From NCBI RefSeq assembly GCF_003334355.1, contig NZ_QOWP01000001.1: a DNA stretch of 64,000 nt, one strand, 5' to 3'. Position numbers: made by a program. Source of the DNA: Escherichia coli (GTDB taxonomy: Bacteria; Pseudomonadota; Gammaproteobacteria; Enterobacterales; Enterobacteriaceae). How positions within the stretch are numbered: position 1 is the first letter of the stretch; each line of letters starts with the position of its first letter. Positions 54,436 through 57,400 of this stretch are shown here, in pieces.

Positions 54436-57400
54436 TAATTCGACATCAACCCTGCCCTTCAGGGGTGGGGTTACCTTGCTTATCCTCTGTAAACTCCTTT
54501 CTGAGCATCACATAATCGAAAACATCATGGTTTGCATCCACAACCCGTGAGTCTCCTTTATAGTGTGCAATCACTTCCTCAAGCGTTTGCGGCTGTTCCG
54601 GCTTTGTTACCCCCATCCACGCATTAATAAGGTAATTATTGTAAGCTGTCGAAAAGATGTTGTTTTCCGTTGTGCGATCCACGCCATCCCCAAGAACGGG
54701 GCTATACCAGATAAACATCGGGACATGATATGCCTGCTGGCTAGCCTCCCTGCCTCCATGAAAATAGACGTTCTTCTTCGTAGGGTCACGTTCCAGGCCG
54801 TGGTCGGCAAAATACATGACCGAGGCGCGGCGATCTTTTAATAATTCAAAAACCTGACCTAGCAAACTATCTGTGTAATGAATGGAGTTGTCATAGCAGG
54901 CATCCTGATCGTCCTGCGGTTGAAACACGGCGCTGGATTGCGGATAGGCGCTACAAGCCGGTTCATGGCTTCCATTTAAATGAAGAACAATCAGTTTCTT
55001 TTGCTGCGTATTTTGCTGTAATGCTTGCGATAAATGCGGCAACAACAATTCATCAAATCCTCTGACATAAACTGTTTCCATGGCGCGCATGGCGATACTG
55101 GTAACTGCTGTACCATTCTGCCGAAAAGCGGATTGCGAGCTTAGCCAGAAAGTCTGAAATCCTGCTTGATTAGCCATATTAATAATGTTGTCGGGGTAAT
55201 TATGAATGTCATGACTCAAAACAGAATCAGCAGTTAAAGAAAGGGGAACCGACAGCGCAGTGTAAGGTGCGCCGCTTATTGCTTGATTAAACAGTTTGAT
55301 CTGTTTTCTTTGTGCTTCAACTTGCGGTGTCGTAGAGCGTGTATATCCATACAAAGACATATTGTCGACACGTACAGACTCCCCCACAATCAACACGTAG
55401 GTATCAATACCTGTATCCCTGACTGATAATTGAAAATACGGCACCGTGTTTGCAATTGAGAGTAATCTTTGATGCTCTTTCGCTGCTAAAGCAAAATAGT
55501 TGAGATTGAAAAACGGCGTATAGGTAGCAAATCGCGACGCTAGTATATATGGACTGAACGCTTTTTTATTTTTTGCATCTTTATAAGCAAATTGACAAGC
55601 GGAAAATAAACTGCCCGAAATGACAATCAGCAATAATATTCCTGTCACTTTTTTTGTCGGCAAGGAAACATCATATTTTATTATTACTGCCAAAAAAAGA
55701 AGGGATAAAAAAGCAAAGGCACATAGATAAGGGATATACATCCCCAGCATTTTGACAACTTCATCCGGATCACTCTGGAGCACACTAATCGCAAATCCAT
55801 CATTGAAAGTTGTACCAAAGGTACACCATGAATAGAGGCTAATACTCATGTCTGCCGCAGTCAGTAACACAAATGGTGCGGCAACAAGCAGGCGAAGCGG
55901 AAGGGATGATATACGTTTTACAACCAGGATGGTCAGAACGAAGAACAGCAAGCGCTGAACCATATGCGCGCCGGAAGAGGCGACTAAGTTCGTAATACCC
56001 AAAACAATAACACAAAGATACAACAACCAATGAGATTTAAAACTTCTAGCAAATTTGTTGAATACTGTCATCCAGAAATCCAAGTTCACAACCAATATAA
56101 ACAATTATCAACAATGTTCAATTTTATATCAGACATGTTTTTCAACTCTGATCCATATCAGACCGAAACACTGTTAGTTTTTTCTTTTTAAATGATGCGG
56201 CCATTGCGTTCTCAGTAATTAAATAACATTATCAATGCGTCTCTAAACATTACGCAGAACGTAGCCATCAGTAGTTATACTGACAGGAGCAGGATGGTTT
56301 ATCGAGAAGTAAACATATCCGTATTCGTACCGGAACTGGAGTTGACACAATAAAGTGCCAATTATGTCAGCAGAAGGGAAAAGTTTATAACTAAGGCGTA
56401 CCGGCACCATCGTTTCAAGGTACCAGCTACGAGTAAAGCAACTGGACGAGATACAGATACCTGACAACCATTCCTCAGACCAGGACCAAAACGAAAAAAG
56501 ACGCTTTTCAGCGTCTCTTTTCTGGAATTTGGTACCGAGGACGGGACTTGAACCCGTAAGCCCTATTGGGCACTACCACCTCAAGGTAGCGTGTCTACCA
56601 ATTCCACCACCTCGGCACGGATACTACTTTTTAGTTCGGGATATCGCTGGTCGGCTTAGCCGGAGCAGCTGGTTGAGTTTGTTCGGTTTTCACCGGTGCA
56701 CTCAGATTTTCCCATTCGCTACCTTTATTGGTTTTGTTGCTATTGATGTTACCCAGCACCAGACTGATGATGAAGAATAACGTTGCCAGCAGCGCCGTCA
56801 TGCGGGTCATGAAGTTACCAGAACCACTTGAACCAAACAGCGTAGCGGAAGCGCCTGCTCCGAAGGAGGCTCCCATATCAGCGCCTTTACCTTGCTGCAG
56901 CATGATCAGACCAACAAGGCCAATTGCCACAATAAGGAAAACTACTAAAAGAGCTTCGTACATAATCAACCTGTTCCTTGCGGAGTTGCCGCGTACCAAT
57001 GCTTCAACCAATAAAGCGGGAGTTTTTAATCTTTCCCACTGAAGCGGGTGTGAATACTAACCAAAGCGAATGACCTTCGCAAGGGCAATTTTATCGCATT
57101 GTATCAACTGCGGAAAAAAACAGCAAAACCGATGTGTTCGCTGAGAAAAAAGGCGACAATCGCCGCCTTTTTAGCCAGTTATCTAACGCTTTAAACGGCT
57201 TTTACTGCATCGGCGATGCGGTGTGCAAATTCAGTCACCTGCGCTTCGTCTTCGCCTTCCACCATCACGCGAATTAACGGTTCGGTGCCGGATTTACGCA
57301 GCAACACGCGTCCACGGTTGCCCAGCGCAGCTTCAACCTCTGTGGTCACGGCTTTAACTGACTCATGCTCAAGTGGATCGCCGCTACCTGCGGTGTAACG

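What the first reader, a model, noticed from the sequence alone, without database searches (positions are those of the whole stretch)
54439..56529. AT-rich yhbX wedged between argG and tRNA-Leu, convergent with argG with only 7 bp between stops
yhbX (EptA-like phosphoethanolamine transferase family) is noticeably more AT-rich than its neighbours and lies beside a tRNA gene, a common signature of an old horizontally acquired islet. No integrase or direct repeat of the tRNA 3-prime end is visible, so this is weak. argG and yhbX converge with 7 bp between stop codons and no intergenic terminator, so their transcripts must overlap at the 3-prime ends.
Basis: inference. Interest (0 to 1): 0.3.

Follow-up and report, generated by a model that had tools for sequence, protein, structure and literature searches.

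The report
yhbX swapped in beside argG
The AT-rich gene yhbX is a foreign 2-kb cassette that, in most E. coli, replaced an older regulator gene together with argG's terminator, so argG transcripts now end inside yhbX; this is an ordinary, well-explained case of gene replacement in a well-studied genome.

Summary
argG (53095-54438, +) and yhbX (54446-56071, -) converge with 7 bp between their stops. There is no canonical terminator. The yhbX block has 42.5% G+C, in the lowest 3% of the window, and it sits next to leuU.

Comparison with other genomes maps the foreign block to the base, 54441-56487. It starts 2 nt after the argG stop and ends at the leuU terminator.

- 95.4% of 5,426 complete E. 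coli genomes carry the block.
- 4.4% carry instead a canonical argG terminator plus a 317-aa XRE-type HTH gene.
- That alternative sits at the same site in a non-coli Escherichia, in Citrobacter koseri and in some Salmonella.
- Other Enterobacteriaceae have an empty spacer or unrelated cargo there. None has yhbX.

No integrase or leuU repeat is present, so the tRNA is probably only a neighbour.

YhbX keeps every catalytic residue of phosphoethanolamine transferases but reaches no curated subfamily cut-off. Its closest relative found is 64% identical and lies on a plasmid.

Published MG1655 Term-seq places the argG mRNA 3' end 37 nt past the stop. That is 3 nt after a hairpin encoded by yhbX's last codons, in a Rho-dependent region. 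Novelty is modest.

The parts
53095..54438 (+). argG (argininosuccinate synthase), core gene; C-terminus ...ENKGQ*
   Evidence: ORF list. Homologues with rimP-argG-leuU-secG synteny occur across Enterobacteriaceae.
54439..54445 (.). 7-bp gap between the argG and yhbX stop codons. The left junction of the foreign block falls inside it, between 54440 and 54441.
   Evidence: Sequence. The window and the non-coli Escherichia locus L093 share '...ggccagtaatt' (one synonymous difference in L093, ggtcag) and then diverge.
54441..56487 (.). yhbX-specific replacement block (2,047 bp, G+C 0.425): the yhbX gene plus its upstream region
   Evidence: Boundaries come from comparison with the alternative alleles L001, L002 and L093. 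The block is present in 5,179 of 5,426 complete E. coli genomes.
54446..56071 (-). yhbX, 541 aa: a phosphoethanolamine-transferase superfamily protein of unknown substrate
   Evidence: Pfam Sulfatase PF00884, residues 224-467, E 3e-56. Matches to NCBIfam EptA, EptB and CptA models are all below the curated cut-offs. E231, T271, H369, D423, H424 and H438 align with the catalytic and metal-binding residues of Neisseria EptA (5fgn) and are invariant in the subfamily alignment.
54449..54487 (-). 13 codons for the C-terminal tail EDKQGNPTPEGQG, which extends beyond the end of the nearest homologue (64%, plasmid). The ends of the other six homologues vary.
   Evidence: Protein alignment A1. No DNA similarity to the 3' flank of the plasmid homologue.
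54448..54472 (+). 11-bp hairpin (AACCCUGCCCU-UCA-GGGGUGGGGUU) in the argG-sense RNA. It lies within the yhbX stop codon and last eight codons and has no U-tract.
   Evidence: Fold: -17.1 kcal/mol, z -2.5 on the + strand, against -11.9, z -0.8 on the - strand. It is not called a terminator by the consensus scan. It is invariant in 5 divergent E. coli alleles.
54475..54475 (+). Mapped dominant 3' end of argG mRNA (MG1655 coordinate 3320017), 3 nt after the hairpin. A Rho-dependent termination region is centred 2 nt further on.
   Evidence: Adams et al. 2021, supplementary files 1 and 2. The sheet is M63 glucose. I converted coordinates using the 61-nt sequence printed there, calibrated on the CCA ends of the leuU and metY entries.
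56072..56487 (-). AT-rich (G+C 0.392) upstream region of yhbX, presumed to hold its promoter. It is part of the foreign block.
   Evidence: Composition. Two weak sigma-70-like sites at 56132-56094. No Rfam match.
56493..56522 (-). leuU intrinsic terminator. The sequence shared by all alleles starts at 56488.
   Evidence: Terminator scan. The right junction alignment shows 'aaaacgaaaaaagacgc...' common to the window, L001, L002 and L093.
56530..56616 (-). leuU, tRNA-Leu(GAG): a neighbour of the block, not its attachment site
   Evidence: ARAGORN and Rfam tRNA. No repeat of leuU in the block.

Best explanation
Window 54441-56487 is a 2,047-bp foreign cassette. It carries one gene, yhbX, and that gene's AT-rich upstream region. 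YhbX has an intact catalytic centre of the phosphoethanolamine-transferase superfamily, but its substrate is unknown.

In the lineage leading to most E. coli, this cassette replaced an older one between the argG stop codon and the leuU terminator. The older cassette consisted of argG's canonical intrinsic terminator and a 317-aa XRE-type HTH gene. It survives in 4.4% of E. coli, so the locus is a two-allele polymorphism.

The swap shows no sign of integrase or tRNA-att chemistry. I infer illegitimate recombination once, followed by spread through homologous recombination in the conserved flanks.

The swap removed argG's terminator and left only 5 nt beyond the yhbX stop. As a result, argG transcription now runs antisense into yhbX. 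In MG1655 the stable argG 3' end lies 3 nt after a hairpin encoded by yhbX's stop codon and last eight codons, inside a bicyclomycin-sensitive region. The most likely route is Rho-dependent termination further downstream, then 3'-exonuclease trimming back to the hairpin.

Shown here or in published data: the boundaries, the allele frequencies, synteny of the alternative allele, loss of the terminator, the mapped 3' end and the Rho sensitivity. Inferred: the direction of the replacement, its mechanism and the role of the hairpin.
For: Boundaries and alleles. Alleles without yhbX keep 'aaaggccgcNNNNgcggccttttttt' 15-25 nt after the argG stop. The window diverges from L093 2 nt after the stop and rejoins it at the leuU terminator.

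Frequencies. The yhbX block is in 5,179 of 5,426 genomes and the HTH allele is in 237. L001 carries a decayed remnant of the HTH gene.

Polarity.
- The HTH gene lies between argG and leuU in a non-coli Escherichia (89% aa; flanking genes 91-92% nt, leuU-secG 94.6%), in C. koseri (73%) and in Salmonella (71%).
- Eighteen of the 20 non-Escherichia relatives show a GC-rich hairpin followed by a T run soon after argG, by my reading of the sequences.
- No YhbX homologue lies near argG in 17 Enterobacteriaceae loci that share the rimP or leuU-secG neighbours. Their spacers are either empty (117-310 bp) or hold unrelated cargo. The common Salmonella state is an empty spacer.

Foreignness. Composition is in the low tail. 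The nearest full-length relatives among 1.84 billion cluster representatives are 41-46% identical and are not at this site. The closest relative found is 64% identical, on plasmid CP057032.1, with a similar G+C of 0.437.

Age and maintenance. yhbX shows the same diversity as its flanks (4.5% variable columns against 3.9-4.6%). Amino-acid changes are 6-12 per 26-34 nucleotide changes, and the ORF is intact in all five alleles. Divergence between the two allele types peaks in the last 237 bp of argG.

Transcripts. Term-seq 3' end at window 54475. Rho score 3.76, p 1.4e-7. Hairpin fold. Listed as an excludon.
Against: - Polarity rests on a small sample. I could not examine named E. albertii, E. 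fergusonii or E. marmotae, and the species of L093 is unknown.
- The HTH gene is itself present or absent within Salmonella, and it has 52-57% identical homologues in distant genera. It may therefore also be mobile rather than strictly ancestral.
- No donor of yhbX was identified.
- The hairpin's role in argG 3'-end formation has not been tested. Five alleles give no power to show selection on it. The 3' end was reported only for minimal medium.
- With bicyclomycin, + strand reads downstream exceed those upstream (212 against 64). Part of the antisense signal must therefore start inside yhbX rather than read through from argG.
Confidence: 0.75

Rival explanations
1. Classical tRNA-targeted genomic island. 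An integrase inserted the block at leuU, and the integrase and att repeats have since decayed.
For: The block is adjacent to a tRNA gene and has atypical composition. The interval on the argG side of leuU is variable in many genera.
Against: There is no integrase ORF and no leuU-derived repeat. The junction is 42 nt beyond the tRNA 3' end, past its terminator. The left junction sits at the argG stop codon, so the event replaced pre-existing DNA rather than inserting into an att site. The 'Phage_integrase' genes near leuU in the E. ruysiae-type contigs are about 200-aa recombinases beside a fimbrial operon (fimB/fimE-like by my reading), not island integrases.
Confidence: 0.05
2. Reverse polarity. 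yhbX is the older occupant in Escherichia, and the terminator-plus-HTH cassette was imported into a minority of E. coli from another species.
For: yhbX is in 95% of E. coli and is as diverse as core genes. The HTH allele is nearly clonal, at least 99% identical in 229 of 237 genomes. Divergence is elevated at the argG 3' end in HTH-type strains. HTH homologues are widespread, which suggests mobility.
Against: The HTH cassette is syntenic in Salmonella, C. koseri and a non-coli Escherichia, with identity falling in step with species distance. A decayed HTH remnant exists in a divergent E. coli. The argG terminator that travels with the HTH cassette is present in nearly all of the family sample. 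No species outside E. coli has yhbX at this site.
Confidence: 0.12
3. Not foreign at all. The AT-richness only reflects a weakly expressed membrane protein gene, and yhbX was inherited vertically.
For: The deviation is moderate, 1.3-1.6 sd. Purifying selection acts on the gene and its diversity is core-like.
Against: GC3 and the non-coding upstream region are also AT-rich. yhbX is absent from the site in all other genera sampled. S. enterica LT2 and C. rodentium are shown with only YbiP, CptA, EptA and EptB homologues in PMC4013655. No full-length relative above 64% identity was found outside E. coli.
Confidence: 0.05
4. The hairpin at 54448-54472 is a weak but genuine intrinsic terminator, rather than a processing stop after Rho termination.
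For: The stem is stable at -17 kcal/mol and strand-specific through G-U pairs. The mapped 3' end is close behind it. Four of the next 8 nt are U.
Against: There is no U-tract, so it fails the consensus scan. The 3' end is only 3 nt from the stem. The region scores as Rho-dependent, with a 3.8-fold rise in read-through under bicyclomycin.
Confidence: 0.2

Closest known systems
Phosphoethanolamine transferases EptA/PmrC, EptB, CptA/EptC, OpgE/YbiP and MCR (the YhbX/YhjW/YijP/YjdB family)
   Same: YhbX has a sulfatase-fold catalytic domain, a conserved Thr nucleophile (T271) and conserved metal ligands (E231, H369, D423, H424, H438). Its hydrophobic N-terminal half aligns with the membrane domain of Neisseria EptA.
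   Different: It scores far below every curated subfamily cut-off, for example 157 bits against 500 and 143 against 404. Identity to solved enzymes is low. No substrate is known; PMC4013655 states that no function has been established. It also has a 13-aa tail beyond the end of its nearest homologue.
Replacement-type variable loci ('hot spots') of the E. coli pangenome: alternative cassettes between conserved core genes
   Same: Two mutually exclusive cassettes sit between the same core flanks. The junctions are sharp and there are no mobility genes. Other genera hold different cargo at the same interval.
   Different: This case is very small, with one gene per allele. One junction lies 2 nt from a core gene's stop codon, so the core gene's terminator is part of what is exchanged.
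tRNA-associated genomic islands (integrase-mediated)
   Same: The block is next to a tRNA gene, has atypical composition and varies among relatives.
   Different: It has no integrase and no att repeat, and it is not joined to the tRNA 3' end.
Convergent 'excludons', that is overlapping 3' UTRs, and Rho-terminated mRNAs trimmed back to a protective stem-loop (Dar and Sorek 2018, PMC6061677)
   Same: Convergent transcripts overlap. The argG 3' end is embedded in the neighbouring gene. The 3' end lies directly behind a stem-loop without a U-tract, in a bicyclomycin-sensitive region.
   Different: Reciprocal regulation of argG and yhbX has not been shown. The comparisons here suggest that the arrangement arose when a gene replacement deleted the original terminator.

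Membership tests
tRNA-associated integrative genomic island | Site-specific integrase gene within the element | tested here: not met
   The only substantial gene in 54441-56487 is yhbX, whose Pfam match is Sulfatase.
tRNA-associated integrative genomic island | Direct repeat of the tRNA 3' end at the far boundary | tested here: not met
   The best match to the last 16-25 nt of leuU has 6-11 mismatches. The local alignment scores at chance level.
tRNA-associated integrative genomic island | Junction at or inside the tRNA gene's 3' end | tested here: not met
   The sequence shared with other alleles resumes at 56488, 42 nt downstream of the leuU 3' end (56530) and beyond its terminator.
Horizontally acquired islet (general) | Atypical base composition and codon usage | tested here: met
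   G+C is 0.425, in the lowest 3.1% of windows. GC3 is 1.3 sd and the local codon-adaptation index 1.6 sd below the window's genes.
Horizontally acquired islet (general) | Absent from the orthologous site in related taxa | tested here: met
   No YhbX homologue lies near argG in the Citrobacter, Enterobacter, Kluyvera, Pluralibacter, Phytobacter, Superficieibacter and Pseudocitrobacter loci, nor in Salmonella or a non-coli Escherichia. Named E. albertii, E. fergusonii and E. marmotae were not examined.
Phosphoethanolamine transferase superfamily (EptA/MCR/CptA) | Sulfatase-type periplasmic catalytic domain | tested here: met
   PF00884, E 3e-56, residues 224-467.
Phosphoethanolamine transferase superfamily (EptA/MCR/CptA) | Catalytic Thr nucleophile and zinc-binding Glu, Asp and His residues | tested here: met
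   T271, E231, D423, H424, H369 and H438 align with T280, E240, D452, H453, H383 and H465 in the numbering of chain 5fgn_A. The catalytic roles of those EptA residues are from my own knowledge. All six are invariant in alignment A1.
Phosphoethanolamine transferase superfamily (EptA/MCR/CptA) | N-terminal multi-helix membrane domain | tested here: inconclusive
   Residues 41-224 are hydrophobic and align with the membrane part of full-length EptA. No Pfam membrane-domain model matched, and I ran no topology prediction.
EptA, EptB or CptA orthologue (a specific known substrate) | Score above the curated NCBIfam cut-off for that orthologue group | tested here: not met
   Best scores are 94-157 bits against cut-offs of 404-900.
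Phosphoethanolamine transferase superfamily (EptA/MCR/CptA) | Demonstrated transfer of phosphoethanolamine to a defined acceptor | not testable with these tools
Canonical intrinsic terminator (for argG) | GC-rich hairpin immediately followed by a U-tract | tested here: not met
   The hairpin is present, but the tail is UUACCUUG and the consensus scan does not call it. Alleles without yhbX and outgroups do have such a terminator.
Convergent excludon / overlapping 3' ends | Transcripts of the two genes overlap | tested here: met
   Published data only. The argG 3' end lies 30 nt inside yhbX, and the pair is listed among the convergent excludons of MG1655.
Convergent excludon / overlapping 3' ends | Mutually exclusive expression of the two genes | not tested
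   I examined no expression comparison for this pair.

The most novel reading that the evidence does not exclude
After the gene swap deleted argG's terminator, the 13-codon C-terminal tail of yhbX was recruited, or retained, as a dual-use element. It would encode protein on one strand and the 3'-end-protecting hairpin of argG mRNA on the other. The pair would then act as an arginine-responsive excludon, in which derepression of argG silences the envelope-modifying enzyme YhbX. The yhbX and HTH alleles might also be kept in E. coli by balancing selection.
Probability: 0.2. Interest if true: 0.45.

Novelty: new member of a known kind. Interest (0 to 1): 0.25.

Why it matters
The case shows, at single-base resolution, how a small gene replacement can remove a core gene's terminator and leave that gene dependent on sequence inside the newcomer. 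This explains the odd 7-bp convergent junction in laboratory E. coli.

It has some practical relevance, because the argG-yhbX junction is used as a landing site for synthetic operons (PMC12421378).

It also flags a natural two-allele polymorphism, yhbX against an uncharacterised XRE-type gene. That polymorphism could help to assign a function to YhbX, the least-characterised E. coli K-12 member of the family that includes the MCR colistin-resistance enzymes. None of this changes current understanding.

Tried and rejected
- My first reading put the left breakpoint inside the last two argG codons, because L001 and L002 end ...VK* while the window ends ...GQ*. L093 has the same ...GQ* tail followed by the terminator. 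The junction is therefore 2 nt after the stop, and VK is allelic variation.
- The word-indexed protein search with YhbX returned only near-identical E. coli entries among its 120 listed hits, so it said nothing about other species.
- Fragments that looked like 73-86% identical orthologues are artefacts. L099 is 99.3% identical E. coli DNA. L100 has G+C 0.33 and is uniformly 80-86% identical across all genes, as in a bisulfite-converted library.
- A 20-nt 75% match between 56403-56422 and the leuU anticodon region is at chance level.
- The 'Phage_integrase' genes near leuU in the E. ruysiae-type contigs are about 200-aa recombinases beside a fimbrial operon (fimB/fimE-like by my reading). They reflect a rearrangement, not an island integrase.
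- Rfam finds nothing in the block. PADLOC finds nothing for YhbX. Phage records hold only distant homologues of at most about 30% identity.
I partly compensated with exact-protein look-ups.
- Other 3'-end datasets were not held as text or did not list argG, and the guessed PMC id for Peters et al. 2012 is not held.
- No homology was found between the yhbX tail or upstream region and the flanks of the plasmid homologue.
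Full report
**What is in the sequence.** The window is E. coli DNA. The argG-secG stretch is 100% identical to some E. coli chromosomes, and the yhbX block is 99.6% identical to strain J53, a K-12 derivative by my recollection. The local gene order is nusA, rimP, metY, argG (53095-54438, +), yhbX (54446-56071, -), leuU (56530-56616, -), secG, glmM, folP, ftsH. The argG TAA and the yhbX TGA are separated by 7 bases, 54439-54445. The consensus scan finds no terminator there, although it does find the leuU terminator at 56493-56522.

The yhbX coding sequence has G+C 0.432 and GC3 0.426. Its 416-bp upstream region has G+C 0.392. The 3 kb on either side have 0.494 and 0.518. 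Only 3.1% of equal-sized windows in the 64 kb are as AT-rich, and all of the others lie in the first 2 kb. Among 49 ORFs of the window that I judged to be genes, yhbX is 1.3-1.6 sd below the mean in G+C, GC3 and a local codon-adaptation index. The compositional deviation is clear but moderate.

**Exact limits of the foreign block.** Of 5,426 complete E. coli genomes, 5,179 contain the yhbX block and 237 contain a different sequence at the same place. About ten have neither.

In the alternative allele (L002), argG is followed by a textbook intrinsic terminator, aaaggccgc-aaat-gcggccttttttt. Next comes a 317-aa gene on the + strand with an N-terminal XRE-type helix-turn-helix, and then the leuU terminator. 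One divergent E. coli (L001) has a 273-bp spacer with the same terminator and recognisable decayed pieces of that gene.

A non-coli Escherichia contig (L093) carries the same arrangement. Its argG is 92.4% and its glmM 90.7% identical in nucleotides to the window. Its ArgG ends ...ENKGQ*, exactly as in the window. Aligning the window with L093 shows shared sequence through 'ggccagtaatt' (one synonymous difference in L093), then divergence, then shared sequence again from 'aaaacgaaaaaagacgc'. The yhbX-specific block is therefore 54441-56487, or 2,047 bp. It begins 2 nt after the argG stop, only 5 nt beyond the yhbX stop, and it ends at the leuU terminator.

**Which state is older.** The HTH gene lies between argG and leuU in three other groups:
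- Salmonella enterica, where the protein is 71% identical. Its 90%-identity cluster has 340 members.
- Citrobacter koseri, at 73%.
- The non-coli Escherichia, at 89%.

Identity falls roughly in step with species distance, which suggests an old resident. The common Salmonella state, however, is an empty spacer with terminator and REP-like repeats, and one genome carries an IS there.

I sampled 17 loci from other Enterobacteriaceae that share the rimP or leuU-secG neighbours of argG.
- The interval is 117-310 bp and empty in Citrobacter youngae, C. werkmanii, Phytobacter and several Enterobacter loci.
- It is about 0.5 kb in Superficieibacter (with one 119-aa ORF) and in Pseudocitrobacter.
- It holds unrelated genes in Pluralibacter, Kluyvera, 'Escherichia sp. 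ESNIH1' and strain RIT691.
- None has a YhbX homologue.

Eighteen of the 20 non-Escherichia relatives show a GC-rich hairpin followed by a T run soon after the argG stop, by my reading of the sequences. The window does not.

The most economical reading is that the yhbX block replaced the terminator-plus-HTH cassette in the ancestor of most E. coli. I put the reverse polarity at about 0.12, because named E. albertii, E. fergusonii and E. marmotae could not be examined.

**Age and maintenance.** Across five divergent E. coli alleles, the fraction of variable columns is 4.5% in yhbX. That matches the argG 3' part (3.9%) and leuU-secG (4.6%). Relative to the window allele, the other four show only 6-12 amino-acid changes per 26-34 nucleotide changes, and the ORF is intact in all five. 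The gain is therefore about as old as the species' diversity, and the gene is under purifying selection. IS1, IS2 and IS1203 insertions in several strains show that it can still be lost. Divergence between yhbX-type and HTH-type E. coli peaks in the last 237 bp of argG, with 9 differences against 0-4 per bin elsewhere. That is expected next to an old allelic boundary.

**Mechanism of arrival.** There is no integrase and no repeat of the leuU 3' end. No terminal inverted repeats mark the junctions. The junction is also not at the tRNA. leuU is therefore probably only a neighbour. I infer one illegitimate replacement event, followed by spread through homologous recombination in the conserved flanks.

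No donor was found. Among 1.84 billion cluster representatives, the nearest full-length relatives are 41-46% identical, and those with readable context are not at this site. The closest relative found is 64% identical, on the 62-kb E. coli plasmid pRHB40-C01_2. That gene has a similar G+C of 0.437 but unrelated flanks.

**What YhbX is.** It has a Sulfatase-type domain (PF00884, E 3e-56). It matches the EptA, EptB, CptA and MCR models at scores far below all curated cut-offs. In the alignment with the solved Neisseria EptA (5fgn), the catalytic Thr and the metal-binding Glu, Asp and His residues correspond to T271, E231, D423, H424, H369 and H438. All six are invariant in the subfamily alignment.

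YhbX is thus very probably an active phosphoethanolamine transferase with an unknown acceptor. A 2014 paper states that no function has been established, and it shows no YhbX counterpart in S. enterica LT2 or C. rodentium. The last 13 residues, EDKQGNPTPEGQG, extend beyond the end of the nearest homologue. The ends of the other homologues vary.

**Transcript ends.** Adams et al. 2021 (PMC7815308) report a dominant argG 3' end at MG1655 coordinate 3320017 (+), seen in M63 glucose medium and classified as 'primary' for argG and 'antisense' to yhbX. The 61-nt sequence printed with that entry is identical to the window. I calibrated its register on the leuU and metY entries, whose CCA ends fall at position 51. 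That places the argG 3' end at window 54475, which is 37 nt past the argG stop and 30 nt inside yhbX.

This position is 3 nt after an 11-bp hairpin at 54448-54472. The hairpin folds at -17.1 kcal/mol (z -2.5) in the argG-sense RNA. On the other strand it reaches only -11.9 (z -0.8), because several of its pairs are G-U. It has no U-tract.

The same paper lists a Rho termination region at 3320019. Reads upstream and downstream are 50 and 44 without bicyclomycin, and 64 and 212 with it. The score is 3.76 and p is 1.4e-7. A second + strand region lies near window 56201, with a score of 2.86.

I read this as Rho-dependent termination of + strand transcription over yhbX, with the stable argG end formed by trimming back to the hairpin, as described in general by Dar and Sorek 2018. 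With bicyclomycin the downstream reads exceed the upstream reads. Some antisense transcription must therefore start inside the AT-rich gene.

ExcludonFinder lists argG-yhbX among 165 convergent overlaps seen in at least half of 58 MG1655 RNA-seq samples. Whether the overlap regulates either gene is untested. Synthetic operons have been placed at this junction without reported harm.

**Verdict.** The added value here is fourfold: the base-level boundaries, the identification of the replaced cassette and of the polymorphism in E. coli, the finding that the tRNA is probably incidental, and the explanation of the 7-bp junction as the scar of a swap that removed argG's terminator. All of this is a well-understood kind of event in a heavily studied genome, so interest is low to moderate.

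Noticed in passing
window 90-1775 (+): Two adjacent ORFs (186 and 367 aa) have G+C 0.36 and 0.31 and the lowest codon-adaptation values in the window. This is a more extreme AT-rich, probably foreign patch than yhbX.
   Followed up: no
window 21883-26890 (+): A cluster of four ORFs has low GC3 (0.38-0.49) and low codon adaptation. From memory of this E. coli region I take it to be a chaperone-usher fimbrial operon; no domain search was run.
   Followed up: no
L002:3028-3981 (alternative E. coli allele); also L089, L091, L093: This is the 317-aa protein that yhbX replaced. Only its first 60 or so residues match HTH models. The remaining 250 or so residues match nothing, yet full-length homologues 52-57% identical occur in Pseudomonas, Photorhabdus, Serratia, Acinetobacter, Gallionella and Oryzomonas. 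It is a widespread, uncharacterised and possibly mobile family.
   Followed up: partly
L094-L098 and L101/L102 (contigs carrying an SecG variant named E. ruysiae by one source): Here secG-leuU is followed not by argG but by nanS/nanM/nanC-like genes, two roughly 200-aa tyrosine recombinases (fimB/fimE-like by my reading) and a fimbrial operon. This is a chromosomal rearrangement whose breakpoint lies on the argG side of leuU.
   Followed up: partly
window about 56201 (+), MG1655 3321743: Published data show a second Rho-dependent termination region on the + strand, in the yhbX upstream region. Reads are 199 upstream and 22 downstream without bicyclomycin. This implies antisense transcription across the 5' half of yhbX that stops before leuU.
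   Followed up: partly
E. coli records H1, H8, H13, H31, H36, H55: yhbX is interrupted by IS2, IS1 or IS1203 in several unrelated E. coli strains, so the gene is dispensable in some backgrounds.
   Followed up: no
L103:438-2099 (plasmid CP057032.1, pRHB40-C01_2): The closest YhbX relative found (64% aa, 68.6% nt) sits on a 62-kb 'non-mobilizable' E. coli plasmid, next to MFS transporter, EcsC-family and GGDEF genes. The local G+C is 0.41.
   Followed up: partly
L100 (SRR3359616 contig): This E. coli-like contig has G+C 0.33 and is uniformly 80-86% identical in nucleotides across ftsH to argG. It looks like a bisulfite-converted or otherwise damaged library. It produced false 'divergent orthologue' protein entries in the public protein collection.
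   Followed up: yes
window 52482-52582 (-): The rimP leader (Rfam RF01770, 102 bits) lies upstream of rimP-nusA, as expected for this operon.
   Followed up: no
L108:3834-4130, L003, L004: The 'empty' argG-leuU spacers of Salmonella and Citrobacter contain REP-like palindromic repeats downstream of the argG terminator. One Salmonella genome (L110) has an IS element there.
   Followed up: no
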